Shown here in pieces: positions 7,150 to 36,200 of a stretch of DNA of 64,000 nucleotides. The stretch is from Strigamia acuminata. Taxonomy: Eukaryota. The stretch is taken from positions 27,776,001-27,840,000 of the forward strand of contig OX442314.1 in NCBI GenBank assembly GCA_949358305.1. Reading direction: 5' to 3'. The number at the start of each line of letters is the position of its first letter. Position 1 is the stretch's first letter. The notes beneath the pieces were generated by a model. It was not told the origin of the DNA. It did not search any database and worked only from the letters and a program-made list of their open reading frames with translations. Position numbers and translations under genes: made by a program.

Positions 7150-7689
7150 GAACCACTCATTACAATTCTCAGAAATCTCATGAATTATTTAAAATACACA
7201 GTAGTAATTACTTGTCAACTTTCACAAAACATCAATATAGCTGCAATGCGGTGTTTTTGAGTGGATCGAGTGCCACGTTTTCACCTCAGTGGAGTTTAAA
7301 ACCGTATGTATTTTTTCATGTCTATATTCAATTGATTATGAGCTTATGAGAGAGATATTCAATCATATTCGAGTTTTGCAAATCTGGATCAAATCATAAT
7401 AAAAAAAAAGCACTGGATTTGCAAAATAACATTCAAATTTATGTGAATCCCACTCTCTCAATACTATCAATAGTCAGTATATCAACAAGAATGTAATTAT
7501 CACACGGCTTTAAGTTCTGTTATTTTTTTAATGAAAGACGTCAGTTGCATTATTTTCGGATTGCTGTGACAACCGAAGCTACGACATTTGCCCGAATGCA
7601 CCGTAACGTGTTTTGAAAGGTTCCTGAATAAACCAATCAGAACGAGCGGTGTAGCATGGGTTGCCATCAAGCAGAGCAAAACTGGTATT

Positions 7690-12200: not shown

Positions 12201-15200
12201 CAACACTTCCCCCTCCGAGCTCAGACCGTGGGGCTGAGCGATCACTTCTTTTTTGGGGGACCCGACACTGAGTCCGTCACCTGGGCGTAACTCACTCCAG
12301 GGACAGGCGGTTGAGTGCCGGGTGGCGCGGATAGATCGCCTACTAGCGCCGAGGACCGATCGCGGGGGTCCTCATGCTCCGTAATGAAACATAGTGCATG
12401 GCCGTCAACTGGCTCATGCGGGGCACGCGTCCTCTCGTGCAACCAAACGCTCGGGATGTAGGCGGAGAAGCCGGTGTTCGTATGCCGGATGGCATTGGCT
12501 TCCGCTGGCGTCACTGGCGCACGGTGGGCTCTCAGCAACCTCTGGTGGAAGATGAGGTCTTTAGTCTTCCGTATCTGGTTGTGAAGCCAGATGAAGACCG
12601 ATTTGCCTTTGTCCCGCTGTGCGAGGATAAACCTCCTGGTCGCCGTTGTCATCGAAAGATGGGGAAACTCGTTGATGATTCGCCCATAATAGTCTGGTGG
12701 AGGCGGTGCCGGCTTCGGCTTCTGGGTGGCCGCGGGAATCACGGCTTGCGTCGTTGTCGCCGCTCGGGCCGGTGGGGTCCCGGGCGGTGTCGGCTTCGTT
12801 TGCTCGACGGACCTGACGGGTGGCGTTCGGCACAGTAAGCGCTTTGGTTTACCCGCCACTTCGAACAGGGCGGGTCCTTGCGGGGACATCTTCGCAGGCA
12901 TCGGTGGCGGAATCGGAACTCCGCTCGTCGGCGAGATCATCATTTCCACTTCCTCTGCCGGTTCTTCCGTCTGGACGGTCAAGGCGCGCAGTTGTTGGGT
13001 GGGCGCCGCTGTCCAGGTGGCGGAGGTGTAACGAAACGCCGTGCTTCGTAACTTGTACCCTTCAAATTCTGGGTTTACCACATCCCTGGTTAGCTCGTAG
13101 CGAGTCAACACAGGGTCGGGCAGAATGGAGCTCCACTCTGCGAGGAGTGCACGGGGAACCTGTACACCCTCTCTGTCCACGGCAGACCATGCGGCCATCG
13201 ACTGACGCCCTTCTCCGAAGAGTGCTGGGGTTAGCAGCTGCATCATGACCTTGGTCAATGATAACTGTAGGCTGCGACGATTCACTGGATTCGATCGCTC
13301 TGAATCCTCAGTGAAGGCACGCGAGAGCTTACTCATCATCGTGATTGCCCATTCGATAAAATATCGCTGTGTTTGATCCACACCTCGCAAGGCAGGTGCG
13401 GAGACTCTTGGGTCTTCCATCACGAAACGAAACGCTGAGAGCTCGGAGATAGTCGGGTTGGCGGCTTCTCTCGCGAGTCGCGCTTCTTCGTCTCGCCTCT
13501 CGAAGAACAGGGCAGAGGAACCGGGTCGGGGTCGGCTCGGCCTGTAAATGTCGGTCAAATTGTTTCGACATTCCTGCAAAATGCTCTGTCCGACGGGGAG
13601 AAGGACTGAGCGGTCGGTGGGTAAATCCGGCGGATCGCTCGAATTCAGCAACGACGGCGGCGGCAGGTTCGGAGGCGGCTGCGTCTTGGTCGGCAGCGTT
13701 GGCGTCGGCAGCGGTGGTGGTGGCTGCGTCGGCGGTGGTGGCGTCTCCGTCGTCTGCACCCCAGTCATTGCGACTTGGGGCGCCGGGAGATGTTGTTCGG
13801 AGCTTGAGGGCTGTACGATGGCGGTTGGCATGCCATCGGGTCGCGGTCGCGAATTTATGTAGTCTGCGAGCCACCTTGCCACCTCGTGTGGGGTCACCAT
13901 CCCGTCGGTGACAACACCCATCTTCCTGGCGTGTTTCATAGTTGGATCGAAACGTGTCAGTTTTGTCCGCTTCATCTGGGTCAGAATCTCGCGAAGGTCC
14001 CGCGTATCTGCCGCTGGGACGCTTCGCTCACCTGACTGGCTACCACTTCGTCGACCCGCTCTTTTGGAGATGTAGGCGGGTTCGGGGATGGGACGGCCCC
14101 GAGCTTCGCACCTCGCGAAGTATCGCTCCTTGCGATCTCTTCTCCGCTGCTCGCGATGAGTCAGCGGACGTCTAGAAGTGCTGGGACGGGAGACTCGCTC
14201 TTCGTCGCCAGACATCCAAACCTCCTTGCACTCCTTACCGTCTTTAATCTGACGGTTTACGAAAATTCGCGGTCGGGAATACTGCGAAGGGTCACGCACC
14301 GTACTAGTGGATGGCCCAGCTTCGTTGCCTTCAGTCGTGTTTTGAATGACACGCTGCTTCTTGGTTGTCACCGGGGAACGCGACTGGCTGTTCCCGGCGC
14401 CTTTGGAGCGCTTGCGCTTCCGCGGGTAGCTGCTTTTGGGCCCCAAAATCCCCAGGTGGTGGAGCTGCCACATCTCGGCTTGGGACGTTAAAACTCCCAT
14501 CCGAGGTCTCCACTGGGGCGTACTCTCCCCCAATCGCAGCCTCTCAAACCACAGATGAATATCATCCGCGGTCATCCCCTCGTTTTGGAGGATGCGCTCG
14601 GCCACTGCCGTAGCGGTATCCACCAGCTGTTGCCTATACTGCTGATAGATGGCCTCACGGGCCTCTTCTGTCTCGGCTGCTTGCCACGCATACAGCACGT
14701 GTTCCTCCGCCGGATTGCCAGTGTACTGACTTGACAATCCGGGGTGGAAAATTGGCGATTTCGGGTCATCGTCACGAGCTAACTCTGTGGCGATGCCTTC
14801 GCGCATCCCCTCCGGGAACGTGTCCAGGAGCGTGCAGTCTCGTACCCAACGTCGGGCGATGCATCGGGAATGTAGTATTCGCAGGCGCCAAGGGTCGGCG
14901 TCCTCGCCGAAACATCGTCGGTAAAATTCGGGCAGCGCGCCTCGAAATATCCCGCCACGAGCGATGCAAGCGGGGTCTAATGGTCCCCATGTTCTACGTA
15001 ATGCCATCTGGAAGGATGGAGAAATAAACAATTAATAAAAAGTTAATATTAAATACGTAGATAAATGGTTGGTTTCGAGGGACGTTGCCGATACGTGCAG
15101 CCGTCCGTCGAGACCGATTCCTGTCTATCGGTGCAAACGTAGGACGAATTGTCCCTCGTCGGATAGAAAAAGAGAAGTCATCACGTAAAAAATCTGTCTC

Positions 15201-18200
15201 ATGTCCAAAACGCACAGCGAGACGGAATCGAGCCTTTAATCCGGATTTTTATCATCAGATTTTACTTCACATTAATTCTAACGTTAATTAGAACATTACT
15301 AATAATTAAATTAATAATTATCAGTCATTCGTAAAAAGAATTCGTCGGGTGTAAATTATTACTAAAAATGCACAATGAAAGTGCTTGTCGAAATTGTATT
15401 AAATAAATAAATCCAATAAAGAATTATTCCGAAGTCGGACTTTGTCTAATTTTTTTTTTACAAAAGTTAAAGTCAAATTAAATTTATCCAACACACCAAA
15501 AAATTCATCGTACGAATGTTAAGTTGCATCAATTCGATGCGTCAAATTACTTGTGGAGAAAATATTCTTTTTACAGAATATTCTCCCCTTGTCATAAAAT
15601 TATTTATGGCTCGAGCCCATTGTCTCGCTCGTGACTCATGTCATGAGGAATTTTCGAGACGCGAGGCGACGTGAAGTCTGCGATCGCATCCCGAAAACAA
15701 ATTAACAAGGAAAAAATACGATCGTGTGAGCGATCGCGGTTAATAATCAGTTATACGCTATTGCGAGTGCAAAGCACTCATGTCAGGTATTAGTCAAACA
15801 AAATTTCTTCTTCAGCAGCACGGAAATAATTCTCGTGCGCCAATGCCGACTTCTACCTGATCGGGTGGAACTTGGTTTACATCGTGGTCCCAATTTGCCT
15901 CATCCTCGTGCTCGATGGCAAGCACGTCGTTCTCTTCCTCGTCCATGGCGAGGAGCGCGCACAAAAAGCTCAATCACGATTAAAAAGGATGATAAAACTA
16001 TCTCAAAAACTCGGTAAAAAACTCGGTAAAAATGTTAAAAACGAGGATCACGCACGGACGCAGCGATCAGCTGTGAAAAGCGGAAGTCCGTGTGAACACG
16101 AGGTAATCGCGATGGATTCTGGGTAATATACTCCAGAACCCGGGTGTTTGAGACTAGTGCGCACTTACCCGTGCGCATGTTACGCTACGGGTCTCCTTGG
16201 TTTTCACTCCCGTGCGCGATTGCTGCTACGGTGTCTTTTGCACGCGGTTTCCGACCCGTGGCGACGATTTTCCTACGGGTCCCGCATTTCACGCCATCTC
16301 GTGACGTGAATTCGACCGATATCCGCTTTGTTGGACTTAGCGAAATTTTTGTAGAGTCTCGGATTTTGATGGCTAGCGCTGTCGATCGATCAATTTTTTT
16401 TTTTTTTTTTTTTTTTGTTTTTCAGCGTCGCCATCGACTCGTAACGTTTTTTACTCCTTTCCTACGACCTTTCCGTCTTTTATAAATGGATTACTTCTAC
16501 GGGGCCGCAGGTGATGAGTCGAGACAGGTACGACGTTTTTTGTTTTTAGTGTCTGTACCTCCTCATTATTGTTTTCTTTTTTATCCGTGTTTTTTGTGTT
16601 TGTTTCAGGAGTTTCTCCTGTTTCCCCCCCGACCAAAATTTGATCCGGAACGGATTCAACGATCTCGTTGACCGGAGGTGAAGGGGCGTCGAAATACTCC
16701 TCGTTGTCACTTGGCGGTGCTTTTTCCGACTCGCCAGCGAACATATCGACGATTTGGCCGTCAGTTTTTGACTTGACTTGGCCCTTGGCCCACATTTCTT
16801 GCGGGAATTCCGGAATGTACGGAGTTAACTCTCGTACTTGTATCGATTTATGCTCGGTATTGTCCTCGAGCTTACGTAATTTATACGCGTTACCGCTGTG
16901 ACGGTGACGACCACAACTCCCATTTAACAATGGTACCGGGAAGAGATCGCAATAAATAAACAGTGAATACAATACGAGATAAATACAAGACAGTTTATTG
17001 TTGGCAAACAATATGGATGAGCTAAATTATACATAGGACTAATGCCGACATTTGGCAAGTTAAATCAGCTATTAAACTATACAAAGAATTGGCCAACTGG
17101 CCCTAGAATAATATCACTACGGGTCTGGAATATGGGAGCGGTTTCCCCATCGCTCGACCTGATTATAGATGTCATCTTAAGCCGGATGGCTGTGTCCTGG
17201 AGTCCGATACGGCTTCGCTGGTTTCCTTGGTTCGCTGTGTAAACTATCGCACGTCGATAAATCGAATGATCTGAGCATTGCGGTTGACTTTGTCTGCACC
17301 GCCACAACTTTGGGAGGATATTGGTGTAAGTAAATGTATTCATTTACTTATCAATATTCCACTTATGAATTATATTTAATTCATATCGTTGTGAATTCTT
17401 ATTTAGATATTTCGGGAATAAGTTGTCGTCAACTTATCGGTTATATTGAGTTCAATATGAGATTAAGTCTTCTGACTTGATTTTGGTCCAACTGGTTGTC
17501 GAGTTTAAGTTTTGCTGTTATAAATAAAATGAAGATTAAGCTTCCCGTCGCAACACACAATTGCCATCGATTAGAATATACGCCTTGCCATGCAGAACGG
17601 TATCAAGCGTCCCCGGCGTCGCAGCACGGTCGTCCATCGAGTGGTTGACGGTACCACGTACACAGGGGTCGATAGCTCGCGGCTCCGCACAGCAGTTTTA
17701 TCTCTCGCGGTACTAATAATAGACCGACTGCTTTGGCATCGAATACCATGAGAATCAGCTTGCCAAACACTTGGTGCTACTCGTGGTTACTGTAAAACAG
17801 ACTGCTTTGGCACCATCAGGTGAAGGAACCGATTCTCAACAATACCGATGCTACTCGTGGTAACGGAATACGTTCATACCGAAAAAGACAACTTGGTCCT
17901 GTCCGGAGGATACTGAATTGCACAACGGCGGGTTCTCCTTCGGCGTCGCAACCGTAGACTGTAACATTTATGCAACATAATAATCCCAGCACTTCGACTT
18001 CAATTGCCGGCGGTGGCATGATTCTGTAGAATCATGCAACGGTTCTTTGCGAATAAATCAACAAAGAACCAAAAGGTTTTTTTACGTGAACAACGAATCA
18101 TATTTCTTAAGTAACAATACCAAACAGAAAATAATCAAACAGAGCTGCGGAATGGCCGATTGTTTGGGTTTATATAACCTGACTGGATTTAAGGATTAAT

Positions 18201-21200
18201 CCAGTCATCCAATTGGAACATGGGTTCCACGAATCCCTCCAATCCCGTATCACCGGAAGTGGATACGGAGGAGCATTTATGCAAATTATGCTAATCCTTG
18301 TTACAACCGGAACTGGATACCCAGGACCGGAAATGGGTTCCACCAATCAGATTGATCGGTTGACCGATTGATCGCTAAACATTCTGTCCCGCAGAAATGG
18401 AAGTTACATTGTATTTAACAATGTCAGATACTTAATATATATTTATATTAATATTTAACACAATTTATTCACTTGATTAAATATACGTTTATATTTAATC
18501 ATGAGGTTTTCAAGTTCGTATTCGAATTTATCGCTAATTGCGATCGCGCCATCTAGTGGCAATATGGAGCATTGACAAATGCGGGTTTTAGCAGACGAAT
18601 CTTCGTAATTATGCCGTGATACTTTAGTATCATGTGGAAATTAGTGTTTATTCTTAATAAACGAACATCTTTGTATTTGAAACATCATAAATGACTTTAT
18701 TCTAGACATTTATCAGTTTTACACAGAATATTGTAAAAATACCATCATATTGGCGCAACAGCGCTTTCTTGATAGAAAATAGGCATTTATAGCCATTGTA
18801 AACCGTCATACATCCCCCTTAATAACACAACTATATAATATTTTATAGAGTTTTCGTTATTCTCCTAATTAGCATAAATGCTATTTTCGGACTTGATGTA
18901 TCTTGGAGATACCGTGACTTCCAATTTCGAATTTGAGTTTACATAAACTAACTTGAATTATCTAAGTTCTGATTTTCTGCCGAAATAATCTTTTCTAATA
19001 GCCTAAATTCAAGTCCAGAATTTATTTCCAAGTCTTCTTTTTGAAGAAACTTTCGTCATACATAAAATCATCATTTGTGTTATCACAAAATATTTATTTC
19101 ATATGCCTAGTCAGATGTATCGCTATAAATATACAATAAATAGCTTTTAGATGATAAGAGTTGACAATTTAAGAATCAAAATGTCCCCCTTAATTGTCAT
19201 GACCGGAGTCACTTGGTATTCTTTGTACAATTGACTAATTTTAATTTAAACTAGTTGTCTTTTAATACTGTAATATTACTTTTCGAGAATTGTTAATTTT
19301 AACTTTATATTTTGTCCCCCTTTTCTTTAGAAGAGAGGTCATGATTTTTAGAAGAGGATTTTCTGTTTACACTATAATCGGGGAATCTTTGTGTATCATA
19401 TCATGTTAATCAACATGATTCTTTGCTAAATATTGAGCTCGCATATTTGCGAATTTCCGAGATCTCTCAGCCTGCTGTACTGATTTCTTTCGACGTTTTT
19501 CCTTTGGGCAGTTACATACAGTGTACTGACTTGGCAGTGTAAATGACCGTGACGACCCAACTTTTTGTTTTAGGTCATCTCTGGAAAACCATACATGAAT
19601 GGGACCCTCATTGGAAAACCATACGTGGAAAGGACCCATATTTGGAATTGTGAAATCCCGCAACAAACGAGGGGATCTATATTTGACTCTAAGTCGTGGA
19701 ACTGATGATTGGAAACCTGGGTTTTCAGTCAGTTTTTGAACATGTTGGTTTGTACTTGAAGTTTCTTCATCACCAGCTGGACTTGGTGACCGAAAACGCT
19801 TTTTTGAAGTTCTTAATTCCTCTCGTTGAGATGAATTATTCTGGATATTGCAGGGTTGCTTTCCAGACGCAAATTGTTGTATCTCCGTCAGATTGACGAC
19901 TGGGACGGGTTTTAGTCGTTGGTTACGGTATTGATTTCGAAATACGAATTGTTGCGCTTCGTTTATATTTTTAAATTCAGCTGAATTTAACTGGTATTGT
20001 TTACAATACTGTTCGAATTGATACCGGATCTCCCGTGGGTTAGTCAAAAAACTTTCTTTTTTAGGTTTAAAATCATTCTCATTATCGTGTTGGTAATACT
20101 TTTTCAAGGGAAAAGTTTGCTTGACTTTTTTTCGATTTGAAATGGGCGTTAGGTAGAATTGTCTTGGCTGGGGACTCTTCTTGGTAGACAAATCATACGT
20201 CCGCAAACATGAGTTTGTGATCGGCGATCGGGCACGTTGTTGTACGTTATTTGACTGCAAATGTTTGTTTGGAGTCCGAATATCTTTCCTTTGCGTTGAT
20301 ATTGGTGGCCCAAAACTTTTGTTTACGGTTCCCAATTCTTTTGATAGCGGTAGGTTAATCGACAGATTAAGGCTAGCCACATATCGTTGTGCTTCAGCTG
20401 GATTAGCATATCGAACTGAAATTAGCTGATCTCGATTGTAAACGAGTTTTAATTTGTTCTGAACAACCGACTGGTTAGTTAACGAACTCTCTGGATGAGA
20501 ATTATTAGGTTTATAATTCTCTTCCCCCTTATCTACCGAATTAGGTGGTTTAAACTTTTCTAACTTAGATCCCCTACTGGATGTTTGAAACATAGTATGA
20601 GAATCTTGATTCACTAAGTTTCGGCTGTATGTTTGTGGATTCCGTACTGGATCTTGATGTGAAGATTGAGATTGGGTACGATCTCGCCAGTTCCTAGCTT
20701 TTACATAGTCTGAAGCTTCGATTATATTTTTAAACTTGGTTTTATCCAGTCCATGACGATTACAATACAGAGTAAAATGATCGGGAATCTTTTCTGTTTG
20801 ATCGCCAAGTGGTACAGAACTTAAATTTAAGTTTGTCTGCTTATTATTTCCTTTTGGATCGATCATATTCAATGGTTTTTGAGCCATAAAAAAATTCAAA
20901 ATCTGACGATTTTAATTCTTTAATTTATAAAGAAGACGAATATAATACACTTTTCAACAAGAAACACTTCTAAACTTTACTTTTGACAAAATAAAATTAA
21001 ACTTCGCGTTTGTTTGACACGTGTTAGCTTTTGCAGGTTACACGGCACACAAAATTCGAATCGTGACTGAAATCGGGACGGCGTGGTCAAGATGACTCTG
21101 GAACACGTCTTCTGGTCTGGTCTGGATGCGAATGATCAGTATCTGATCTGGTCCTCCTTTAATAGCAGGGGGCTGGGGATCCCTAGATCTCCCAACTTCT

Positions 21201-24200
21201 GATTGGCGGATGTTAGTGTCGGCCAATGGTATAAAGGACGTTACATCTATTTAGTAGTTCTCTACTAAGTCCGTTCCCTTCGAGATTCAATTTTACCGAT
21301 AAAATAAAATTCCTTCGGGAAGACATTCGTAAAATATTGTATTTTTCAAATGAAAATAAAATAAACTTACTTCAATCTTCTTGAACTTTGGGATTTTTAC
21401 CAATCCAAATAATTAAATAACTTTTCTTCAAAAAATATTTTTCTTTGATTATTCCGTTTAGTGTGTAATATCATTACAACCACAGTTTTAATAAAGTTTT
21501 CTCAAACTCTCAATTTTTCTTATTCTTATTCAATTATCGTTCAAATAATCATTCCTTTGTAATTGAAATCTATTTTCGATTCCCAACATTGTGTATTCAT
21601 TTCCAATAGGAAGAATAATTTGACCAAGTCTTTACTTTTTCGGGTTTAAATTCCATTTTTCGAGTGTGAAAAAATAAATTTTCACCATCCATCTCCCCCT
21701 TTTTAACAAATTTTTTTAACAAATAAAAATTCGTTAAAATTCTTTAAATTTGTTTTGCGAGAAAAATTATCTAATTCTCTAATCTTCCAAAAGAAAATAT
21801 TCGAAATTTTACTTTAAACGATAAAGTTATTGGTACAAATGTGTACTTGTTTTTCGGGAGAAAACTATTCGACAATCCTTTAGACTTTTGGGTAAAAATT
21901 ATTCATCAAATCTTTCTTTTTTGATGACAATTGCTTTGATTTTTCGAAAGAAAATATCTAGCTAAATTCCACTTTTCCTGAGCGGACAATTGTTTTCACA
22001 ATTAGTTATTCCTTTGCGATATTTACGAAGGACGTGTCTTTGATTATTCGTTTTAATAATTTTCGTCCCCCTTATCTCTAATAACGAGATGTTTTTGCAG
22101 AGATCTTTTATCTTTTGAATGAAAGAATATTTAAATCTCAATTGTCGTAAATACCTTCATCTGCTGCAGCATTTCCTCAATTTGAACTTTTCAAATGAAA
22201 AGACAAATCTGGAGAACTTTCACTGTCAAACTTCTATTCCTATCGCGCCAAAATTCGTAATTCACTGGTTTGGAATTCCGTATAACACGTGACACAATAA
22301 CAGTATCGATGTCACAATTAAGCAGTTTACTACTCGGTCCGCGCGAGGACATGTAAATTACTTTTTTCCGATAAAAATAATTTTTCTTTGAAAAATATTT
22401 GAAATTGATTTTTCACAACTACTTTTGAATGAAATAAAATGAAGTTATTCCAACTTTTCGTTAATTGCTCACACATAACATTCCCTTTACTGTGGGATTT
22501 GCATCGAAATTCCATTTTTAAAGAACCTTTCTTTTACTTATCGCAAATAAAACATATTCAATCGTTTTTCTGATTAAACTTTAACACGTAAATTACGAAC
22601 GAAATATATGATGACATTCCATTAACCTTTAGGAAAATTGACTAAATTCTTAATTTTTAGAGAAAAATAATGTATCTAGAATCTTTCCTTTTCCGAATAA
22701 AATCTATGTTCAAAATAGAAGATAAATCTTGTGCAATTCTTAGTTTTTTCGAATGGAAAAATACAACTTTTCATCAGCGGTGATTTATTTGATTTTTCCG
22801 AAAGAAAAATAATTACTTTGAAACTTATTTTCTTCGTTTAAATCAGCTATCTGATTTTAAAGCTTCAATCCAATCAAAAAATATTCGCTCCGTAAATATT
22901 TCATGTGGCAAAGTTCATAGCCACAAATGGATTTGTTATTCCGGTTTTAAGAAATCATGTGGGAAAATGTCCGATTAGATTACTAAAAATATTCGTTGTT
23001 TTTCAAACAGCTAAATTTCATTTAGAAATTCTCAAAATTTGGGAGACCCAAATATCGTTGGAAACTTAAAACACTTGTTAAATTTCCGAAAGGAAAGATT
23101 GAATGAAATCCTTTTACTTTTCCGAGGGAAAGCGTTTATCGTGATTCGTAACTTTCAATGTAAAAAATACTATTCTATGTGGTCGGCAACTTCATTCGCC
23201 GCCATTTTATATTTTCTTAATTTCCATTGTCCCGAAGGAAAAAATGTACTTTTTGTGAAAATAGTTAATTCCTTCAAATAAAGGTAATATTCATTTCGAT
23301 TTGCAAATCTTTTCTGCGAAATGGAGTGTGTTGTTTTTCTCCAACAACTAAATTATCTTTGGTACCGATGGCAGTGGAAAAATTAGTTCGCGACACTTAA
23401 ATAAATCTCTACGAACCTTCTGTAACATTTCTCCGCTGTCTTTTATCTGTTGTCCGCCATAATTTCCAAGCATTCGTTCGCACCTTGCGTTGAAGGTTTG
23501 AGTAGCTTCCCTGCTGCGTTTGATACGGAGATCGACGCGTATTGCTATGGCGCGTGGTCGCTGGCTATCGGTGTCGACGTACAGTTACAAGAAACTTAAT
23601 TTCTTGTAAATATTTCCAAATAGTTGCGGTGTTTTCTTCGTTTTAACTTTTCAGGTGGAAAGATAAATTCGTAAGAAGTCCGCCTTCTAAACTTGTATGT
23701 TTTTAGCTTTTCGAAATAAAACAAACTTCGAAAAAAATATCTGTATTCTTATTTCACTCGAAACTTTTTTTTGATTTCTTATTTAAAATACTTCGTATTC
23801 CTTAAATTGTCGAACGAAAATAGTAAAGAGAGTTCACTAAACGTTTCCATTTCGTCAGTTTAACTTTTCACATGAAAATATAAACTGAAAATCTATTTGT
23901 CTGTTTTAACTAAAATTTTTTTGTTAATATCGGATTCAAGATTCGCTTTTGCAATTCGATCGAATTAATTTGCAACCTATTTCAGTGATCGTGTGATAGG
24001 TCTATAACTTCCGAAATTCCTAGTTAAAGGACAGTTTTGGTGTTTCTCAAGAAAATAAACATGGTTTGAAACTGGTCTGTTTTTTAACTAAATCTTTTAG
24101 TTAAATATTTATCTCAAAATTCACTTTTACAATTCTATCGAATTTAATTGCAACCTAATCTCGGTGGGACCTCCACGTGTGAGATTAGGTGGTAGTCTTT

Positions 24201-27200
24201 GAAATCCCTAAAATCTTCAAACGAAAATAATGAAGGAAAATCTACTACGTATTTCTATTTCATCAGTTTAACTTCTTCACATGGAAATATAAACTGAGAA
24301 TTTAATCTGTCTATTTTTAACTTAAATCTTTTAGTTAAATATTTATCTCCAATATTCACTGTTGCAATTCAATCGAATTTAATTGCAACCTAATCTCGGT
24401 GGGACCTCCACGTGTGAGATTAGGTGGTAGTCTTTGAAATCCCTAAAATCTTCAAACGAAAATAATGAAGGAAAATCTACTACGTATTTCTATTTCATCA
24501 GTTTAACTTCTTCACATGGAAATATAAACTGAGAATTTAATCTGTCTATTTTTAACTTAAATCTTTTAGTTAAATATTTATCTCCAATATTCACTGTTGC
24601 AATTCAATCGAATTTAATTGCAACCTAATCTCGGTGGGACCTCCACGTGTGACGGTGACGACCACAACTCCCATTTAACAATGGTACCGGGAAGAGATCG
24701 CAATAAATAAACAGTGAATACAATACGAGATAAATACAAGACAGTTTATTGTTGGCAAACAATATGGATGAGCTAAATTATACATAGGACTAATGCCGAC
24801 ATTTGGCAAGTTAAATCAGCTATTAAACTATACAAAGAATTGGCCAACTGGCCCTAGAATAATATCACTACGGGTCTGGAATATGGGAGCGGTTTCCCCA
24901 TCGCTCGACCTGATTATAGATGTCATCTTAAGCCGGATGGCTGTGTCCTGGAGTCCGATACGGCTTCGCTGGTTTCCTTGGTTCGCTGTGTAAACTATCG
25001 CACGTCGATAAATCGAATGATCTGAGCATTGCGGTTGACTTTGTCTGCACCGCCACAACTTTGGGAGGATATTGGTGTAAGTAAATGTATTCATTTACTT
25101 ATCAATATTCCACTTATGAATTATATTTAATTCATATCGTTGTGAATTCTTATTTAGATATTTCGGGAATAAGTTGTCGTCAACTTATCGGTTATATTGA
25201 GTTCAATATGAGATTAAGTCTTCTGACTTGATTTTGGTCCAACTGGTTGTCGAGTTTAAGTTTTGCTGTTATAAATAAAATGAAGATTAAGCTTCCCGTC
25301 GCAACACACAATTGCCATCGATTAGAATATACGCCTTGCCATGCAGAACGGTATCAAGCGTCCCCGGCGTCGCAGCACGGTCGTCCATCGAGTGGTTGAC
25401 GGTACCACGTACACAGGGGTCGATAGCTCGCGGCTCCGCACAGCAGTTTTATCTCTCGCGGTACTAATAATAGACCGACTGCTTTGGCATCGAATACCAT
25501 GAGAATCAGCTTGCCAAACACTTGGTGCTACTCGTGGTTACTGTAAAACAGACTGCTTTGGCACCATCAGGTGAAGGAACCGATTCTCAACAATACCGAT
25601 GCTACTCGTGGTAACGGAATACGTTCATACCGAAAAAGACAACTTGGTCCTGTCCGGAGGATACTGAATTGCACAACGGCGGGTTCTCCTTCGGCGTCGC
25701 AACCGTAGACTGTAACATTTATGCAACATAATAATCCCAGCACTTCGACTTCAATTGCCGGCGGTGGCATGATTCTGTAGAATCATGCAACGGTTCTTTG
25801 CGAATAAATCAACAAAGAACCAAAAGGTTTTTTTACGTGAACAACGAATCATATTTCTTAAGTAACAATACCAAACAGAAAATAATCAAACAGAGCTGCG
25901 GAATGGCCGATTGTTTGGGTTTATATAACCTGACTGGATTTAAGGATTAATCCAGTCATCCAATTGGAACATGGGTTCCACGAATCCCTCCAATCCCGTA
26001 TCACCGGAAGTGGATACGGAGGAGCATTTATGCAAATTATGCTAATCCTTGTTACAACCGGAACTGGATACCCAGGACCGGAAATGGGTTCCACCAATCA
26101 GATTGATCGGTTGACCGATTGATCGCTAAACATTCTGTCCCGCAGAAATGGAAGTTACATTGTATTTAACAATGTCAGATACTTAATATATATTTATATT
26201 AATATTTAACACAATTTATTCACTTGATTAAATATACGTTTATATTTAATCATGAGGTTTTCAAGTTCGTATTCGAATTTATCGCTAATTGCGATCGCGC
26301 CATCTAGTGGCAATATGGAGCATTGACAAATGCGGGTTTTAGCAGACGAATCTTCGTAATTATGCCGTGATACTTTAGTATCATGTGGAAATTAGTGTTT
26401 ATTCTTAATAAACGAACATCTTTGTATTTGAAACATCATAAATGACTTTATTCTAGACATTTATCAGTTTTACACAGAATATTGTAAAAATACCATCATA
26501 TTGGCGCAACAGCGCTTTCTTGATAGAAAATAGGCATTTATAGCCATTGTAAACCGTCATACCGCCATGCTTGCCGATGATCACATACGGACCATCTCTC
26601 TTGTCGGCCAAGCTGGCGGTGATTCCTCTCGCTGCATTTGAGAGGGTGTGTGCATCTTTCCACACCAAATCATTGATCTCGAAATTCACGAATTTTCCAC
26701 CGCTTTTATCTTGTAAAATGCGGTCGCGCATGTTAAAAATGTGCGCCATCATATGTTTGTATGTGCTCGAAATTGTTTGCTCCAATTTATACACATACTC
26801 ATGTGGTTTCTCTGGGTCCACCACATTTACCGACTCTGCCACTCGCGGGTCCCAAGGCACTCGTAGCTCTCGGGCGAAGTTGAGGTAGGCCGGAGAAAAA
26901 TCTCTCGTCCTCGAGACTGTTGTTCGTATGCTGAACGCGATCTCCCTCAAGTATTCATCCCACCGATTGTGGATGTCAGTGAATATACTTAATGCATATT
27001 TGATATCCCTGTTGAGTCGCTCAACGGGATTTGTTCTGGGGTTGTAGGTCGAAGTATGTGACGCCACAATCCCGAACTTCTCACAAAATTTACCCCAAAT
27101 TTTCGAGATAAATTGGGGTCCGTTATCGGATATTATTTTACGTGGAAATCCGTAACGTAACGCCGCGTCGTAGATACATTCAACGATTTTCTCTGCTGAA

Positions 27201-30200
27201 GGTCTAGCGACGGCGTACAACTCGGGCCAACGAGTCGCCACGTCCATTATAACGATAATGTACGCATTTTTATTTCCCGTAACGGGTTTTGGGCCCATCA
27301 CATCGACAGTTAAACAATCAAAAGGCGCGTAAGGCCCTAAGAAAATAGTTTCGAATGGTGATTTACTCCTCGGCTTGCACGCTTGACATCGCTGACATTG
27401 GTGGACAAAAAGAGCAATATCTTTTTTCATCCCTGTCCAGTGAAAAAGCTGTGTAGCACGATAGAGTGTTCTGCTTACTCCCGCATGGCTTGCAAGCGGG
27501 TGCCCGTGTAACAACCACAGCACGCGACCGATTAAGGAAGCAGGTATTACTACCTTTACTGCGGTGTCCGATTCACTCAAGTCATCTTGGTGATTTGGGT
27601 GATGTTTCACCAAAAGGCCGTCATCCAATAGATAATCTATGGATTCGTGTGCATAACGACGCTTCTGCCTTCTGGTTAAGTTGGGCGGATATTTTCCTGT
27701 CAGTACGAATCTAGCTCTGTCCTGACATTTTTTGTTTAATTTTTGTTGCACAATTATTTCCTCCCTTGTTGGGGGATTGCTTTTCATTTGCTTGCCGACA
27801 CGAGCGTGGAAGGCGCTTAGAAGCGAGTCATTTATTCTCTGCTCTAGCTTAAATTCCTTCTTTGCATTTGGGTAATTGTCAGCAGCTGGTTGGTATAACC
27901 GCGTCCAGAATCCACAGAATTTTACGTCTGCCGGAGACGCGGTGGGAATTTCATTCATCTTCCTTAAATCCCAACGGTGACAACTCGTAGGGCAATAAAT
28001 GATGCGGGAGTCATCCTCGCCATCATCGTCAGCGTCGATTGGATCTGACACTGGTGCCCGTGACAGAGCGTCAGCCACGACGTTATATTTGCCGGGCTTG
28101 TATTGAATGGTCAAGTCGCATGCCATCAGTTCTAACTGCCATCTGGCTAGTCGACCGGCTGGCTCCTTTAATTTCATCAGCCATTGTAACGCTTGATGAT
28201 CTGTGTGGACCACAAATTTGGTATATTCGAGATAATCTCTGAATTTCCTTATGGCCCACACAACGGCCAAACACTCCAACTCGGTGGCATTGTAATTTTT
28301 TTCAGCGCCTTGGAGTTTGCGACTTATAAACATGCACGGCAGGTCTTGTTCGACTCCGTCGCGCACGTGTGTTTGAAGCAACGCGGCTCCCAACCCAACT
28401 CTGCTGGCGTCCGTATGTAATATGAACGGCCGGTTTAGGTCGGGTAGAGGCATTACGCCGACTTTCGTCAGCATCCTCTTTATCGCATTAAATGCGATGT
28501 TGCACTCATTTGACCATACAAATTCGTTTTCATTCTTCAGGAGGTCGGTAACTGGGGCTGCCACTTCAGCTAGACCCGGTAGCAACCTGCCGAAGAAGTT
28601 TATCATTCCCATAAACCGTTGGACACCTTTAACGTCCTCGGGTGGTGGGAAACGATTAATCGCATCGATTTTTTCGGGGCCAATAGCTAAACCATTGAAT
28701 CCAATGCGATAACCCAGGAAGGCAAGCTCCTTTCGACAGAACTTGCTCTTGCCCGGGTGAACGTGTAACCCAGCTTTTGCCAGCCGGGTGAGCACTTGGT
28801 CGATGTGCTCAATGTGCTCTTTGAATGTTTTGGAGGCAATAACTATGTCATCTAGGTATGCCCACACAAACTGATGCAGGATATCACCCAATACGCTTTC
28901 GATTAGTCTCTGAAAGGTACTGGGAGCGTTCACTAAACCAAATGGCATGACGTTGAACATCAACCGTCCAATTGGCGAGTAAAATGCTGTTTTTATCTTA
29001 TCCTCTGGCCTCATCTCAACTTGCCAGTATCCCTTCGACAGATCCATCGTTGTAACCCAAGAAAAGGGGCTAAGCTCTCTCAAAATGGATTCGATAGACG
29101 GCATCTGTATGGGATCTATCTCTGTCACCGCGTTTAATGGGCGGTAATCAATGCATAGGCGTGGGTCCGAGCCCGGGCGCATCACGAGCACAACTCGCGT
29201 CGCGTATTCTCCCTGGGCCTCGGAGACAATGCCACTGTCTAGCATTTCTTGGCACATTTTTTGCACTATTTCACGTTTTTGCGGGTTCATTCCCTTATAC
29301 GCAACTCGTATAGGTTTATTATCCGTCAATTTAATTTCGTGAATAGCCCTATTCGTTCGGCCCGGTTTTTTCGACAGGATCCCCTCATATTTAAGTAGGA
29401 CCCTTCGTAGAGCTGCCGCTTCGTTTAATTCTAAAGCGGCGTCGGCGACAAGCGTTTCCACTACATTGTCCCGTTGCAATTCTGTTACGAATGCTTTAAA
29501 ATCGTAGTCTTGAACGAATTTCTTTAGGCCTTTCTCCCACTGTGTCTTGTCGGCCGCTTCTTTTACAAGAGCTGGTGGCACGACAATTGCGGGTCTTTCC
29601 TTGTCATTTCTGATATAATTCCAAGATTTCGTTATTGGATTTGGTTGTATTTCCATTGACGCCATGAGGTCTAAGCCCAACAGAAAAATTCTGTCGCATG
29701 TGGGCAGGACCAGGAAAGGGTGCTGTTCTACCCCTCCGAGCCACTCCATGGTCAATAATATAAATCCTTTTGGACGCGCCATTCCGTTGGCGGTTTTTAG
29801 ACGTATATTTTTATTAACGCCTTTTATCTTATCGGCGAGACCCAATGATGCTACTATGTCTTCGGAAACGAACGAGCGATCTGCTCCCGAGTCTAATAGT
29901 CCCATAATTTTTTCGCGTTCTATTGTCATGGGCAGCATACATAGGCGGCTGGTGTATTCGACCGCCACGTTGCACATGAAAACACGAAATTCTTCTGTCT
30001 CTTCGACTACTTGAGGTAATTCTTCAAGCAGTAGGTTCGGTTCTTCCGCCTCAGCGTTTGCGGTGATTACCTGCAAAGCGTTGTTGGCCCTGTCTTGAAT
30101 TTGGGCGTTGGCTATGTCACTACCCATTTCTTTGACTGGTGGCGGCTTATCGAACCCTTTGTTAAACCCCTTCTTCTTCATGAATGGCGCAGACGGTCGA

Positions 30201-33200
30201 GAAGTTATTTCTTCGCCGCCTGCGCTGACTCGTTTTTTGACTCGTTTTTTGCCATGGCGAGTTTAATCTCTGCCATCTGCTTCATTATCGCGTCAAACTT
30301 CGCGTCTTCTTTCGCTGTTCTTGGGCACTCTTTGGAGTAGTGGCCCGGTTGGTTACACTTGAAACAGCGAATATTTGATTTGTCTCTTGGGGCTTCAGTC
30401 GATTTTTTCTTTTCAGGGTCTGCTTTCGACGGTGGCGTGTAATTTTTTCGAAAATACTTCGGAATTCGGCCGGCATTTGGTTTTAACCTGGCGCGAAATT
30501 CTTCTACCGCTCTATCTCGATGGATGAGATGTACTAGCGGTCCTTCCTCATCGCAACCCGTTGATAAGGTATCGCGATAGCTTCGTATTTCTTCGTCCGT
30601 CGAATAATCGTCTTTTTCTTCTTTTTCGTCTGATTTTCCGGCATCTTGTCCGGCTTCCTCCCCCTCCTTGACCTCCTCCAGTGTCGCTTGCATGGCTGAC
30701 GCTGTCGGTGCCTTTTTAGGGGCGGCCAAAGGGTTGGAAGGCAGCGTGAATGTCAGTTTATTTTTTATTTGCAAACCAACGCTAGCTTCTGCCAGCTCCA
30801 TTATACCGCTAAGATATTCAGTAGGGCGCATAATCTTATCTGTCCCCCCATATCTTTCCGCACTCAACTTGAGACGGTTTGCGGTTGCTGCTTTCTCCGC
30901 TTCTGGTAAAGCGGAATAATACCTCTTCTCGATATCTATCGTGTTCTCGAACAGGAAGGCGCTCATCTCCTCGTAGCTGCCTCCTGTCGGTGCCCTTTCT
31001 TCAAGTAACACCCGTTGCGAGTACTCCGACAAACCGCCGAGGAAGAAAAGGTTGAATCCCGTGGCATGAAATTCCATCGGGGCCTTTTCAAACAACAATC
31101 TGGCGCGAATGTCGTAATCCATTATGGTTTCACCAGGCATCTGGCGAAAACCTCGCATCTTTCGGCTCACCTCTTCGGGTGTCTCGCCGTAGCGCAGGTC
31201 GAATCTCATTAAAAAGTCGTCCCAATTGACGCCTTTCAATCCTTGGTACCACTCACGTGCCGAGCCTGTCATTAGCTCGACAATACCGTGGGTGAGCATG
31301 TCTCCTACGGTGGCTTTAGTGGCAGTCTTAATTCGAATTACTTCGTCAAGGAAGCGATCTCCCGCTTTCCATGACCCGTCGAAACGGTTCTGAATATAAA
31401 ACTGCCACCTAATATTCCCGGTAATACTCATGGTGTCACGTCGGGAGACAGCGTATTTTTTCTTTACGCGGTCGCCAGTGCTACGATTACGATCGTTTCG
31501 TTTGCTCAGATCGATTCCCTCGGCTTTTAACGAGCCAAGTAGTGCTCTTCCAAGCTCTCCCATCGTATACTGCCGACCCGTCGAATCGGTAAACGCGCTT
31601 TGTCGGGGAAGGTCCTGAAACTCCTCCCGTCGGTGGTCGCTATTTTCCGATCGACGTCGTTTCTCTCTATCACGCGGAGAGTTGGATCTCTTCCGGCGAT
31701 TACTTGATTTATCCTTTCGTCTGTCGTCGTTGGATGAGGGGTCGGAGCTGGGGTCGGGGGACGGTGAGCGGCGTGGCGGGTTGCGCCGTGAAGAGTTTGA
31801 CTCTTTCCGGCCCCTACGACGGTCGTCACGTTCCTTTTCCCTGCGTTCATCGCGTTCTCTTTCCCTTCGTCTTTCTCCGGAACCTCTCTCCGAATCGTGA
31901 TGACTGGGTGCATTTGACTCCAGTCCATCTGACGACGAATCACTATTTCCGTAGTGATAATATTTCGGTCTTTCATCGCGTTTGCCTTCTTCTCGCGAAA
32001 AGGTGCGATCATGCGATTGTCTCCTTGACGACTCGTCGTCTTCAAGGATGGGCACTGGTTGTTGCCACTCAGTCCCTTGCGGATTATCATGCTGTTGGCT
32101 TGTGAGAGCTTGCTCTTCATTTCGCTTAGCATTATTAGCGTTGATTAACCGCGTTATCGCATTATTTGTGGCTGAATCGAGAGCTTGCATGCGGGGCCGA
32201 GTTTGTTGTTCTCTGGCCGACGCATCTCTTTTGCGCGGAGTAGCTGGCGTTGCCCTCTCCGGCTGGGGTTTGGGTTTGGCCTTCGGCGTGCGCTTTGGGT
32301 CTCCCTCTAGGCTCTCGTCGGACAGCTCGGATGAACTGACCTCTGGTTTGCGAACGGATTTCGGGTCATCTCGTCGCAATCTGGCCATAAATGCTCGCTC
32401 TGCTTCTTGTTGCGAGTGGAAAGCATATCGATGTGCTCTCAGGGCTCGGTCAACTATTTCTACCTCCTCGGGAGTAGTCGGATTGGGCTGGGTTCTGCCG
32501 TACTCGAGAGCTTGCGCTTCTCTTTCCGCCAGCTTCCTCCGTCTCTCGCGAATGGCTTGTCGAGCCTCATTCTCTGCATCCGCTTCAAATTGAGCGGAAT
32601 CAACCAATTGTTGAGCGTATGCACCTTCAACAATGGTGATTTGTGGGGATACACTGTGCGCTTTTAAAGCTGCACGTACGATCTGTAACGTTTCGTACAC
32701 GGTAATCTTCCCCGTCGGAAGGGTGTATCTCACTCCCTCCGCTTGTGCCAATTGCATCGCATCAATCAAGGTGCCCGAGACGCTGTAAGGCTGGCTTGAA
32801 ACACGCTTGACAGAGGACGAGTTGGACTTGTGCCCTTCAGACATTACCGAGGCTGGTCGACTGTGCGTAATTGGCGTGTTTAGTGCTGAATTCGCTGTCG
32901 TGTCGGACGCCATCCTTTGTATCGAAGACGTCGCTCTCGGATCGCTCACCTCGGTATCGTGCGTTAGGCGAGGCGATTGGTTACGGGATAAAACCTCGTT
33001 TCCGCTCGTCTCGCCGTCACGATTGGGACGCGGCGGTTTGGGGTGGGACGGATCCTCACTCCGCTCCGTCTCGTCTAATCGCTGCCTCGTTTCGGCGTGA
33101 GACGGGTGCGATGCCTCCGAAGCGCTTCGTCGGTCTGGCTTGGCCTTGCGGCGTTTTTGCCTAGACTCGTGCGCTGAGGCTTTGGGCAAAGGACCTCCCG

Positions 33201-36200
33201 ACCTCAAATGATAGTCGGTTCCTTTGCGACTACCGGCTCGTTTGTTAACGTCTGAGTCGGAGTCCGTTACTCGAGTATTATCTGCCATTTCTTGCTTTGG
33301 GTATGATGTAATCACAGGTTAGAATCAGTTATTCAACTTGATCCCGGACAGGCCCCCACGTGTCGCGCCCCTACTTCGCTCTTGCAGACTCGTGGGTTGA
33401 TTACTTAATTCGACTAACTCACTACCGCTTTGTTCGAGCGGTTTACCCAAAGAAATGATTACACAGATATAAAAGGTAAAATATAATATAGATTTATTCT
33501 GTGGGACAATGTACAGATATATCTTATATATATATATGAAAGGTAAGTAAAAGGTAAATCGGAATGGGTGATGGGAATGGAAAGGTAAAGGTAAGATGAA
33601 AGCTGGCTGGAATCGGCGAGGTCGTCTGTTGTCTCGTTCGTGTCCAAGATGGCGTCCTCGTTGTGGCAACGTGATGTCGTCTTGGGCCAACGTGGCAATA
33701 TGGCGTCCTCGACTCGTCTCTGGCTGGTCCTTCGGGCTCACGCTGGTCAGGCGCGAGTGAATGCTTAGTTAAAAGGCTTACTTCGGTCTGTTGTCTAGGT
33801 TTTTGTGTGGTGTCCGGCGATCACACAGCGGCGGACTCTTCTGGCTCCCGGCGGTCACACAGCGGCGGGAACGCTCGTCGTTGTTTTACTGCAGTTTAGG
33901 CTTGTGCGACCGTTTGTCTGCACAACTCGCTAAACTGGAGTGGTTTTTACTATTTCTAGCTGGTGTGCTAAAATAGTGTGGTAATCTTATCTCGCAGGTT
34001 ACTCTGCGGAGTTTGACACTGACCAAACGTACTCACGGTAAATTGTCCTTTGTCCTTGGTCAATCCCAGTATATTTACTTGGGCCTGATCTTGTAGGACG
34101 ACGGGTTTTACGTGTGTTTCTCGTTTGATGGTTGTGTTGGTTCTGCCCGCTCAGTGCAAGGCACATTCCTTTGCACAAAGCGGGGTTGACAGGTGACCGG
34201 AATCACCCAATGGTGGGGTGGACGAGCCATCCCCACTCCCTCAGGGCAGACGCCTGTCCATTGACTAGATGTCAATGCACTGAGGGAAGGGAGACGCGCT
34301 TGCGGCTCCCCTTACACTCGAAACGAGGTCACGAGAGAAACTCTTCGTTGACCCCGGTCCAGTCGGGTCACAACATGTTGAACCGACCACATCACCCATG
34401 GGGCTCACACCCTGTGTGTGACGGGTAGGTTACCGGTGCGGTGTGCCTATTGGCATCCCTGCAACGGGTGACAGGATTCCCCATACCCCTTGACAACACA
34501 TATTAAAGGCCAACAACCAATAATAGGGATTCTTTGTCATTTATTCGTGAGTATGCGTCCCACACCAGGATAACCAGTTCCTGAGTTACCTTGGCAAAGG
34601 CCATATCAGTCACAATACTTACAATGTGCACATGTGCGACGTCGCACAAAACTTGTCGTCGCGGTGTATGCATGCAAACATTATCGTAATGTAAACTATC
34701 TCAAACTGAGACTAGCTGACCCGAAAGTAACATGACACACACACCGCCAGTTAAATTCAAAAGTAACTTTGTTCAACAATAACCCTATTTAAATATCACA
34801 CTGGTCGGTTCCCATTGGTTAATTACCACGGAACAGCCCCGATTGGCTGTTTACACTTAAAACGTTTATCGGACGTATTTGTGTACGTCCGCCCGCCCCC
34901 TGGCGACACGTTGTCGCCCGTCAAAACCCGAAAAACTCCACAGTAACATCGCGAGTAAGAATATCGCATGTATGATGGAAGCCCGTCAAATTGTTTTTCC
35001 TTCAAGGGGGTGGCATATTTCGTTCAATCCTGATCATATAAATTGTTCACACTAACCTGATTTAGCGTGGCTAGCCGAATATATCATGAACAGTTTATGC
35101 AACTGGGATTGTATGTACAATTGCGGCCATAAAAATTGTTCATTACACTTCCACCGTTTAATACTAGGTATCTCTGAAGGATGGTGTCATGCCCTATCGA
35201 TACACTTTGCCCGTGCAGATGGGAATTGAAGCTGAATTTCAATTTATTTTGCGCAAAGTGAGTTAATTGCTTGTTTCTTTAGTTCTTGCAATTTGTTCAG
35301 TGATGCAGCAACATTACAGATATCTTGTGACAGTTATTATTGTGGATACATTCAACAAAAATAGTGATATAGTATTTCTTTTCTGCAAGTATCAATTTTT
35401 ACCTTCAAGAAACCCCTACTGTGAACCCAGCCTTATAAAGCAAACCCAATGTTATGAAGACTGTGTGTCAAAACAAACTCTAAAAAAATATCCACAATGC
35501 AGGTCTGTAAACTTAGTTCACTGAAACGATTGATAATGCTGATACTGTAGATTGTTTACTTAGATTGCCTTACATGGCTGACAAAAATCTGCCAGACTGC
35601 AGTTTAGAAGCAAACAAATCAATTGTGCTTAAAGTGTATGACGACTCCTACCATCCCGAAACATCCACGCTGGCAACAATTGAATGTGGTTGCCTAAGAC
35701 CTTGTCAAACGAGTGTTTATCACCTAATAGTGCAGACTGATACTTGTTAAGTCAAACAATTTTATTTTTACGCGTAATTATAACAAAATTAATCATCTTT
35801 TACTGTTAGATTTTGAAGATGAACCCAGTAGTAAAGATTTAGTAAGTTTGAATGTTAAAGTGATGGAAGAAACATTTGTCAGAATGACAGAAATCTACAT
35901 TTACAAAATTTCTAATTTGGTCATCGATTTTGGCGGTAATCTAGGATTTTCTTTGGGATATTCGCTCCTCTCTATAATCGAAATTGTACAATTTGTTTCG
36001 CTTTTGTGCTACAATAAGTATATTAGACCTGTTCGACTACAAACTCACATTAAAACAAAAGTCATTTATCAAATTAAAATGTCAAATTTGAAGAAAAAGG
36101 CAAAGAAGACTTTGACTCAAACCTCGCCCATGCTACAACACACGTTTTTCATTCTCATTTTGATTTGTGCTTTCTTAGCAGTTTATGTGAGCAAAGAAAG

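What the first reader, a model, noticed from the sequence alone, without database searches (positions are those of the whole stretch)
23820..24647. Array of three perfect tRNA-Gln primer binding sites in structured 235-bp repeats
Each unit carries the 18-nt PBS preceded by TCACA-CG, the same context as the true LTR end. The two internal PBS copies sit in a hairpin (acctaatctc/gagattaggt, 10 bp). Each unit also has other stems (tcagttta/taaactga; gttgcaatt/aattgcaac) that persist in the degenerate copy, where the PBS loop is lost but acctat/ataggt still pairs. Inference: amplified priming/packaging signals that let a parasite outcompete its helper, decoys for 3' tRNA fragments that target PBSs, or alternative priming sites that would extend the LTR.
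Basis: partly seen in the sequence, partly recalled or inferred. Interest (0 to 1): 0.72.

Follow-up and report, generated by a model that had tools for sequence, protein, structure and literature searches.

The report
Self-masking repeated primer sites in retrotransposon
A young, abundant jumping gene that lacks its own copying enzymes carries three tandem copies of the site where a host tRNA starts its copying; the inner copies are predicted to be folded shut and likely unused, and the repeated piece also carries a stretch predicted to pair with the element's own RNA end signal, which may be what the repeats are kept for.

Summary
Three exact 18-nt tRNA-Gln primer binding sites (PBS) lie 235 bp apart on the minus strand behind the 5' LTR of a 9.7-kb non-autonomous LTR retroelement (identical 1.9-kb LTRs, no gag/pol), with a fourth, decayed site behind them. 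Contigs of runs from two studies hold the internal PBS junction, so the layout is family-wide; depth suggests that two intact sites are usual and that the window's exact third copy is a recent, minority duplication. PBS1 sits in this stem; inner sites are closed by a junction-specific arm, cost more to open, and are lost in variants that keep the hairpin. Best reading: a self-masking leader module duplicated by reverse-transcription template jumps, primed at the outer site only, any benefit lying in RNA structure (possibly 5' poly(A) masking) and not in extra priming or tRF decoying. Function is untested. This scan noted the same tandem-PBS/anti-PBS layout in other genomes; my paper searches found only partial precedents. 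New variant of a known kind.

The parts
24648..26562 (-). 5' LTR, 1915 bp identical to the 3' LTR; lacks the first 1-3 nt of the TG end depending on how the TSD is read
25920..25927 (-). TATA-like TATATAAA, candidate LTR promoter (inference; would give a long R of about 1.2 kb)
24745..24750 (-). AATAAA, the only one in the LTR downstream of the candidate TATA; candidate poly(A) signal
24695..24736 (-). U/GU-rich LTR-end stretch behind the AATAAA; three arms (24727-24736, 24710-24720, 24695-24704) predicted to pair with the leader
24628..24645 (-). PBS1, exact 18-nt tRNA-Gln site, 2 nt (CG) behind the LTR end TCACA
24575..24626 (-). Leader side of the LTR-end/leader stem in unit 1 (24617-24626, 24588-24598, 24575-24584)
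24413..24647 (-). Unit 1, 235 bp: CG-PBS-leader-anti-PBS arm-TCACA
24416..24425 (-). Anti-PBS arm at the end of unit 1, closes PBS2 (pairs with 24388-24397)
24393..24410 (-). PBS2, exact, predicted occluded
24178..24412 (-). Unit 2, 235 bp, 100% identical to unit 1
24181..24190 (-). Anti-PBS arm at the end of unit 2, closes PBS3 (pairs with 24153-24162)
24158..24175 (-). PBS3, exact, predicted occluded
23992..24177 (-). Unit 3, 186 bp, older diverged unit with intact PBS and a shorter arm at its end (23996-24002)
23797..23991 (-). Unit 4, oldest unit: PBS decayed (remnant 23979-23989, duplex with the primer end -8.6 against -37.3 kcal/mol), junction stem kept, no arm at its own end
19406..20887 (-). 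493-aa ORF without Pfam family or homologue found; not gag or pol by these tests
18813..18820 (-). Polypurine tract AAGGGGGA
16897..18812 (-). 3' LTR, 1916 bp, TG...CA, ends at TCACA with no unit attached

Best explanation
The array is a tandem series of one leader module (last 5 nt of the LTR, CG, tRNA-Gln PBS, a stretch complementary to the LTR end, local stems, and a terminal anti-PBS arm) in a young non-autonomous LTR retroelement, likely copied by template jumps during reverse transcription and likely primed only at the outermost site. Shown: the layout, its presence across the family, exact identity of units 1 and 2, decay of the innermost site with its stem kept. Predicted by folding: PBS1 sits inside a long LTR-end/leader stem, while the arm at each unit's end folds over the next PBS, so every new duplicate is masked as it is made. 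Inferred: minus-strand synthesis stops at the RNA 5' end, a few nt into U5, and re-lands one unit downstream (the long-range stem that joins a unit's two ends brings both points together), and the repeated LTR-end/PBS junction lets the second strand transfer slip by one unit, so the count goes up and down. Masking makes the extra sites harmless; if the repeats are selected, the likely payload is the structure, above all the arm that covers the 42 nt behind the 5' LTR's poly(A) signal.
For: Unit borders fall exactly on TCACA-CG-PBS four times. The arm ACCTAATCTC occurs only at the two internal junctions of the element and is missing behind the last unit. Single unit: its two ends pair. Opening energy PBS1 8.6/10.2, PBS2 12.7/13.8, PBS3 15.1/14.4 kcal/mol. 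In a 651-nt ensemble PBS1's flank pairs with the LTR end (0.98-1.0) and PBS2/3 with their arms (0.99). The 42 nt behind the AATAAA pair best with units 1, 2, 3 (-33.7, -33.1, -27.0 kcal/mol; mean -11.7 over 575 windows; 0 of 1000 shuffles); opening them costs 22.9 at the 5' LTR and 9.7 at the 3' LTR. Run X1: one contig holds the internal junction and unit body at depth 11,413 against 9,039-9,990 for five single-copy leader contigs (ratio 1.14-1.26). Run X3 (other study): a contig with 29 other letters and 12 gap letters in 242 runs from one PBS into the next; 2 contigs join the stem arm directly to CGTGTGA, i.e. lack 13 nt of the inner PBS; one has a change in the inner PBS's TGG. Units 1 and 2 share a G (24298/24533) where all X1 and X3 depth shows A, so their duplication is younger than that change. 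The 3' LTR ends at the true LTR end.
Against: All structure is predicted; no RNA data. Covariation is weak: of 25 X3 changes 17 fall on unpaired places (51% expected, p = 0.07), 6 keep and 2 break a pair, none is two-sided; between units only 1 two-sided change in 60 pairs, and many pairs of the 3' half are broken or gapped in units 3 and 4. A tRNA duplex (-37.3) would still outweigh the cost of opening any site, so with a nucleocapsid chaperone the inner sites could be used. The inner PBS of unit 3 is still exact although the unit body has diverged, which also fits selection for tRNA binding. The 42-nt arm was picked after seeing the fold, so its shuffle test is optimistic; transcription start and poly(A) site are inferred from motifs only. 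Contig depth is no copy number (tool's warning), k-mer contigs cannot phase LTR and units, and 37 and 94 loose-end rows were not shown. The jump mechanism is inferred from retroviral reverse transcription, not tested.
Confidence: 0.55

Rival explanations
1. The extra sites are selected tRNA-binding sites: more tRNA-Gln bound per RNA aids dimerisation, packaging or priming and lets the non-autonomous element outcompete its helper; the hairpins only gate access until a nucleocapsid opens them.
For: Inner sites of units 2 and 3 are exact although unit 3 has diverged; the family is very abundant in X1 (depth near 9,500 against 45-100 for the rarest contigs); Drosophila gypsy binds its tRNA at two sites (PMC1635307, abstract); the tRNA duplex outweighs the opening cost.
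Against: PBS core lost in unit 4 and in X3 variants while the stem stays; inner sites are the least accessible; in gypsy only the 5' site was needed for cDNA synthesis; exactness is also explained by recent re-copying from PBS1.
Confidence: 0.17
2. The inner sites are former or alternative LTR ends: priming there gives an LTR extended by one or more units, because each unit ends in the same TCACA plus 2 nt that an integrase needs.
For: Each junction keeps TCACA-CG; an earlier AI note (e1-9523320, another genome, unchecked) describes such modules inside both LTRs; a title in a reference list reports frequent dual initiation in HIV vectors with two PBS (Voronin and Pathak 2004; title only).
Against: The 3' LTR here has no unit; flank junctions listed are at 24648, none at a unit end among the rows shown (12 of 49 rows; 18 of 112); only 5 nt of LTR end are repeated; inner sites are occluded.
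Confidence: 0.12
3. A neutral DNA-level tandem repeat (slippage or unequal exchange), like the 5'-UTR repeats of many insect elements, with the hairpins as chance by-products; the exact third copy may even be an assembly error.
For: Tandem repeats are common in non-autonomous mosquito LTR elements (PMC3286476, section 14); units 1 and 2 are 100% identical; no raw or long reads were available; covariation is weak.
Against: Borders coincide with the LTR end four times; the arm is junction-specific (chance about 2e-4 per unit length) and kept with matching 1-nt losses on both sides at the oldest junction; X1 depth of the unit exceeds single-copy leader by 14-26%, as expected if some copies hold two such units.
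Confidence: 0.11
4. The inner sites are decoys for 3' tRNA fragments that would otherwise block PBS1.
For: They are exact complements of a tRNA 3' end; that 3' tRNA fragments target PBSs is recalled, and one search listed only general reviews.
Against: The sites are predicted shut, are lost in variants, and lie on the same RNA, where more sites would invite more silencing (inference).
Confidence: 0.05

Closest known systems
Partial PBS duplication of HIV-1 MAL-type isolates (PMC3185550, section 3 read)
   Same: Natural duplication of PBS sequence just downstream of the true PBS, kept in a large share of isolates, changes the fold of the PBS domain.
   Different: There 23 nt and partial; here whole 186-235-nt modules with the full 18-mer and the LTR-end pentamer, repeated 3-4 times and closed by their own arm.
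Two tRNA-Lys sites of Drosophila gypsy (PMC1635307, abstract); bipartite PBS of Ty1/Ty3 (recalled)
   Same: More than one tRNA-binding site per genome RNA; only the 5' site is needed for cDNA synthesis.
   Different: There the second site lies at the 3' end of the genome; here identical sites are tandem in the 5' leader and predicted masked.
Retroviral U5-leader stem / extended PBS stem (PMC1865047, passages) and 5'-LTR poly(A) occlusion (PMC12789967, passages)
   Same: LTR end pairs with the leader around the PBS; elements with the poly(A) signal in R must suppress it at the 5' LTR.
   Different: Here about 32 bp of predicted pairing cover the stretch behind the AATAAA and need the leader, so they can form only at the 5' LTR; the passages read name a local hairpin and U1 snRNP for HIV-1, not leader pairing; the leader arm is present in several copies.
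Culex non-autonomous LTR elements with internal tandem repeats, and cqgypsy_1 (PMC3286476, sections 13 and 14 read)
   Same: No coding capacity, near-identical LTRs, clear PBS/PPT, complex tandem repeats; cqgypsy_1 has a 26-nt LTR-end duplication around a tRNA dimer; Osvaldo-like elements have 1-2 kb LTRs and mostly 4-bp TSDs.
   Different: The repeats there are not reported to contain the PBS; LTRs of the non-autonomous group are 125-931 bp; Osvaldo-like elements use tRNA-Lys.

Membership tests
Non-autonomous LTR retroelement | Two similar LTRs | tested here: met
   1915 bp, 100% identical
Non-autonomous LTR retroelement | PBS behind the 5' LTR and PPT before the 3' LTR | tested here: met
Non-autonomous LTR retroelement | TG...CA ends and target-site duplication | tested here: inconclusive
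   3' LTR is TG...CA; the 5' LTR lacks its first 1-3 nt, giving a TSD of 3, 4 (CCGC) or 5 bp
Non-autonomous LTR retroelement | No gag/pol | tested here: met
   No Pfam hit for the one long ORF; no tblastn hit of 123 gag/pol queries in the internal region at E 0.01
Osvaldo lineage of Ty3/gypsy | LTR of 1-2 kb | tested here: met
   1916 bp; range from PMC3286476
Osvaldo lineage of Ty3/gypsy | PBS complementary to tRNA-Lys | tested here: not met
   18-mer matches the tRNA-Gln3 PBS of PMC1592299
Osvaldo lineage of Ty3/gypsy | Placement by RT phylogeny | not testable with these tools
   Element has no RT; its helper was not found (the two autonomous gypsy neighbours have a different, tRNA-Pro-like PBS, name recalled)
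Bipartite/two-site PBS (gypsy, Ty1, Ty3) | Second site at the 3' end or complementary to another part of the tRNA | tested here: not met
   All three sites are the same 18-mer within 490 bp of the 5' LTR; no further site with up to 3 mismatches in the window
Retroviral U5-leader stem | LTR 3' end pairs with the leader on both sides of the PBS | tested here: met
   Predicted only: z -3.2 and -3.9, duplex test
Retroviral U5-leader stem | Needed for initiation of reverse transcription | not testable with these tools
   Needs probing and primer extension
Tandem-array TRIMs (recalled; only a search listing seen) | Repeat unit contains a whole LTR plus internal region | tested here: not met
   Units hold 5 nt of the LTR end only

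The most novel reading that the evidence does not exclude
A recurrent, undescribed retrotransposon device: a self-masking leader cassette that reverse transcription itself expands and contracts, in which each copy shuts its own PBS and offers an antisense arm that covers the 5' LTR's poly(A) cleavage region, so that unit number tunes read-through (full-length RNA output) of a non-autonomous parasite.
Probability: 0.22. Interest if true: 0.72.

Novelty: new variant of a known kind. Interest (0 to 1): 0.5.

Why it matters
A single PBS directly behind the 5' LTR is the textbook rule and the assumption of annotation tools. A family that multiplies the whole PBS module and masks the copies shows how extra primer sites can be tolerated, gives a natural series (0-3 inner sites, with and without the PBS core) for testing what picks the primer site and fixes the LTR end, and points to a leader-dependent way to silence the 5' poly(A) signal in elements with a long R. 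That AI notes of this scan describe the same tandem-PBS plus anti-PBS layout in other genomes suggests a repeated solution worth a systematic survey, though those notes are unchecked.

Tried and rejected
No whole genome is held, so copies could not be counted or phased. No RNA holder listed; run X6 gave no contigs. The 493-aa ORF: no Pfam family, no homologue among 2734 candidates of 271-863 aa, no similarity to the neighbour's gag or extra ORF (best E 0.18 and 0.52); the Atlas gave no answer. Rfam: 0 matches at E up to 1 in the element. Helper: neither autonomous gypsy in the window shares the PBS or LTR sequence; their PBS occurs once each. The outer pol's best relatives are 44-49% identical generic Ty3/gypsy proteins, no clade assigned. 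The X3 joint 'goes back 193' is not read as a 193-bp unit: the same-depth contig lies in one piece on unit 1. Paper searches (ten in all, terms on multiple/second/tandem/duplicated PBS, dual initiation, micropia, tRF decoy, U5-leader stem, premature polyadenylation) found no description of a tandem masked PBS array; the library lacks most subscription papers, and Voronin and Pathak 2004 is not held. No supplements were read. A search with the tektin-like frame found nothing at E 1e-10.
Full report
Setting. The window is animal-like DNA rich in nested LTR retrotransposons. The finding lies in a 9.7-kb element on the minus strand: 3' LTR 16897-18812, 5' LTR 24648-26562, identical over 1915 bp, PPT at 18813-18820. 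It is inserted in the integrase end of a Ty3/gypsy element (gag 30205-33318, pol 26453-30262, LTRs 11191-12205 and 33361-34375, 99.6% identical), so it is very young. Its inside holds one 493-aa ORF without family or relative found and no gag/pol remnant (123 queries): it is non-autonomous. Its helper is unknown; both autonomous gypsy neighbours have another PBS, once each.

Observation. Three exact 18-mers at 24628, 24393 and 24158, chance 0.02. PMC1592299 uses this 18-mer as the tRNA-Gln3 PBS (passage); PMC3564811 calls it a tRNA-Thr site (passage). Cutting at TCACA|CG gives four units: 1 and 2 (235 bp, identical), 3 (186 bp, 77%, PBS intact), 4 (72%, PBS decayed). The 10-bp hairpins are there. 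The array is structured (z -3.5 per unit) but not uniquely so within the element.

Is it real and shared? No genome is held. Three runs of one organism from two studies hold 55-82% of the element's words, all as contigs. In X1 one 248-nt contig covers the internal junction and unit body with one difference, at depth 11,413, against 9,039-9,990 for five single-copy leader contigs and 24,700 for an LTR contig; the ratio 1.14-1.26 suggests that most copies have one unit of this type (two intact PBS plus the decayed one) and a minority two. Depth is not a copy number, so this is a hint. Units 1 and 2 share a G at 24298/24533 where all X1 and X3 depth shows A (X2: 35,517 of 45,477), and unit 4 has A too: the exact duplicate arose late in this copy's lineage, or is an assembly error that long reads must exclude. 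In X3 a contig with 29 other letters and 12 gap letters in 242 runs from one PBS into the next, so the layout is older than that divergence. Also in X3, 2 contigs join the stem arm directly to CGTGTGA, lacking 13 nt of the inner PBS, and one changes its TGG. With unit 4 these are separate losses of an inner PBS core with the stem kept. Flank junctions are listed at the true LTR end (24648, 5 contigs in X1), none at a unit end, but only 12 of 49 and 18 of 112 loose-end rows were shown.

The 42 nt behind the LTR's last AATAAA (24745-24750) pair with the first 60 nt of the leader in three helices of 10, 11-12 and 10 bp that enclose PBS1 (z -3.9, 0 of 200 shuffles). Over 575 windows of the internal region the three best partners of this stretch are units 1, 2 and 3 (-33.7, -33.1, -27.0 kcal/mol; mean -11.7; 0 of 1000 shuffles; the stretch was chosen after seeing the fold). 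It can form only where the leader follows: opening the stretch costs 22.9 kcal/mol at the 5' LTR and 9.7 at the 3' LTR. With a TATA-like box at 25927 R would be about 1.2 kb, so the 5' poly(A) signal would need suppression, as PMC12789967 states for retroviruses with the signal in R (passages). That the stem does this is my inference. The unit's local hairpins are the alternative partners of the same arm when the LTR end is taken.

Which site primes? Opening costs 8.6-10.2 for PBS1 and 12.7-15.1 kcal/mol for PBS2 and 3; in the joint ensemble PBS1's flank pairs with the LTR end and the inner sites with their arms. The arm occurs only at the two internal junctions, in shorter form at the oldest junction with a matching loss on both sides, and not behind the last unit. 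The 3' LTR has no unit, as expected from priming at PBS1. Against: a full tRNA duplex (-37.3) outweighs all these costs, and covariation is weak: 17 of 25 X3 changes fall on unpaired places (p = 0.07), 6 keep and 2 break a pair (the 4 transitions at Watson-Crick pairs all give G-U on the RNA strand), and only 1 of 60 pairs changes on both sides between units.

Mechanism (inferred from the steps of retroviral reverse transcription as listed in PMC12789967, and from recall). After strong-stop synthesis the RNA template ends at the PBS with a few U5 bases left; a minus strand that runs off this end and re-lands one unit downstream makes exactly TCACA-CG-PBS-leader twice. In a single unit both ends pair, which brings the two points together. 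Once repeated, the 25-nt junction lets the second strand transfer slip by a unit. As the arm travels with the unit, each new inner PBS is masked from the start, so it does not misprime and can decay. I put 0.55 on this, 0.17 on selected extra tRNA binding, 0.12 on alternative LTR ends, 0.11 on a neutral repeat or an error in the third copy, 0.05 on tRF decoys.

Comparison. Closest: the 23-nt partial PBS duplication of HIV-1 MAL (PMC3185550, section read), the two tRNA sites of gypsy (PMC1635307, abstract), the retroviral U5-leader stem (PMC1865047, passages), and Culex non-autonomous elements with tandem repeats and cqgypsy_1 (PMC3286476, two sections). None is a tandem of whole masked PBS modules; ten searches found none, in a library without most subscription papers. 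Earlier AI notes of this scan report the tandem-PBS plus anti-PBS layout in other genomes; I could not check them, and none was found for this DNA or for the poly(A) idea.

Verdict. Real, family-wide, a new variant of an ordinary LTR-retroelement leader; the extra sites are likely masked passengers of a structural module, function untested. Interest 0.5.

Noticed in passing
window 26551-26566 and 16890-16897: The outer end of the 5' LTR lacks the terminal nucleotides that the 3' LTR has (TG...); with a 4-bp TSD (CCGC) exactly 2 nt are missing, as if the integrase had trimmed 2 nt from an end that began at the TG.
   Followed up: partly
window 19406-21180 (-): The 493-aa orphan ORF near the 3' LTR is intact and preceded by a GC-richer stretch with a TATA-like TATTAAA near 21160, suggesting an internal promoter; no family or homologue found.
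   Followed up: partly
window 12242-15007 (-): The outer Ty3/gypsy element carries a 921-aa extra ORF behind pol, in sense, without Pfam family; not similar to the 493-aa ORF.
   Followed up: no
window 42548-45025 (+): A 2.5-kb LTR element (about 310-bp LTRs, 99.7% identical, GGCCA on both flanks) carries an intron-less tektin-like frame broken by one stop, followed by a CAA-rich repeat: likely a host gene piece captured by an LTR element.
   Followed up: partly
window 33341-33360 (-) and 59297-59316 (+): Both autonomous gypsy elements have a near-identical PBS (tRNA-Pro-like, name recalled) behind ACA plus 2 nt, single copy each; the outer one also shows a moderate LTR-end/leader duplex (-22.6 kcal/mol).
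   Followed up: partly
window 25053-25172 (-): Strongest local fold of the element (z -5.7) lies inside the LTR, in the putative R region.
   Followed up: no
window 54616-55387: 300-bp inverted repeat, 99% complementary, 172 nt apart: likely a MITE or foldback element.
   Followed up: no
window 6680-9062 and 50568-52946: 2.4-kb repeat, 93% identical, next to BEL/Pao coding remnants; candidate long LTRs of a BEL/Pao family.
   Followed up: no
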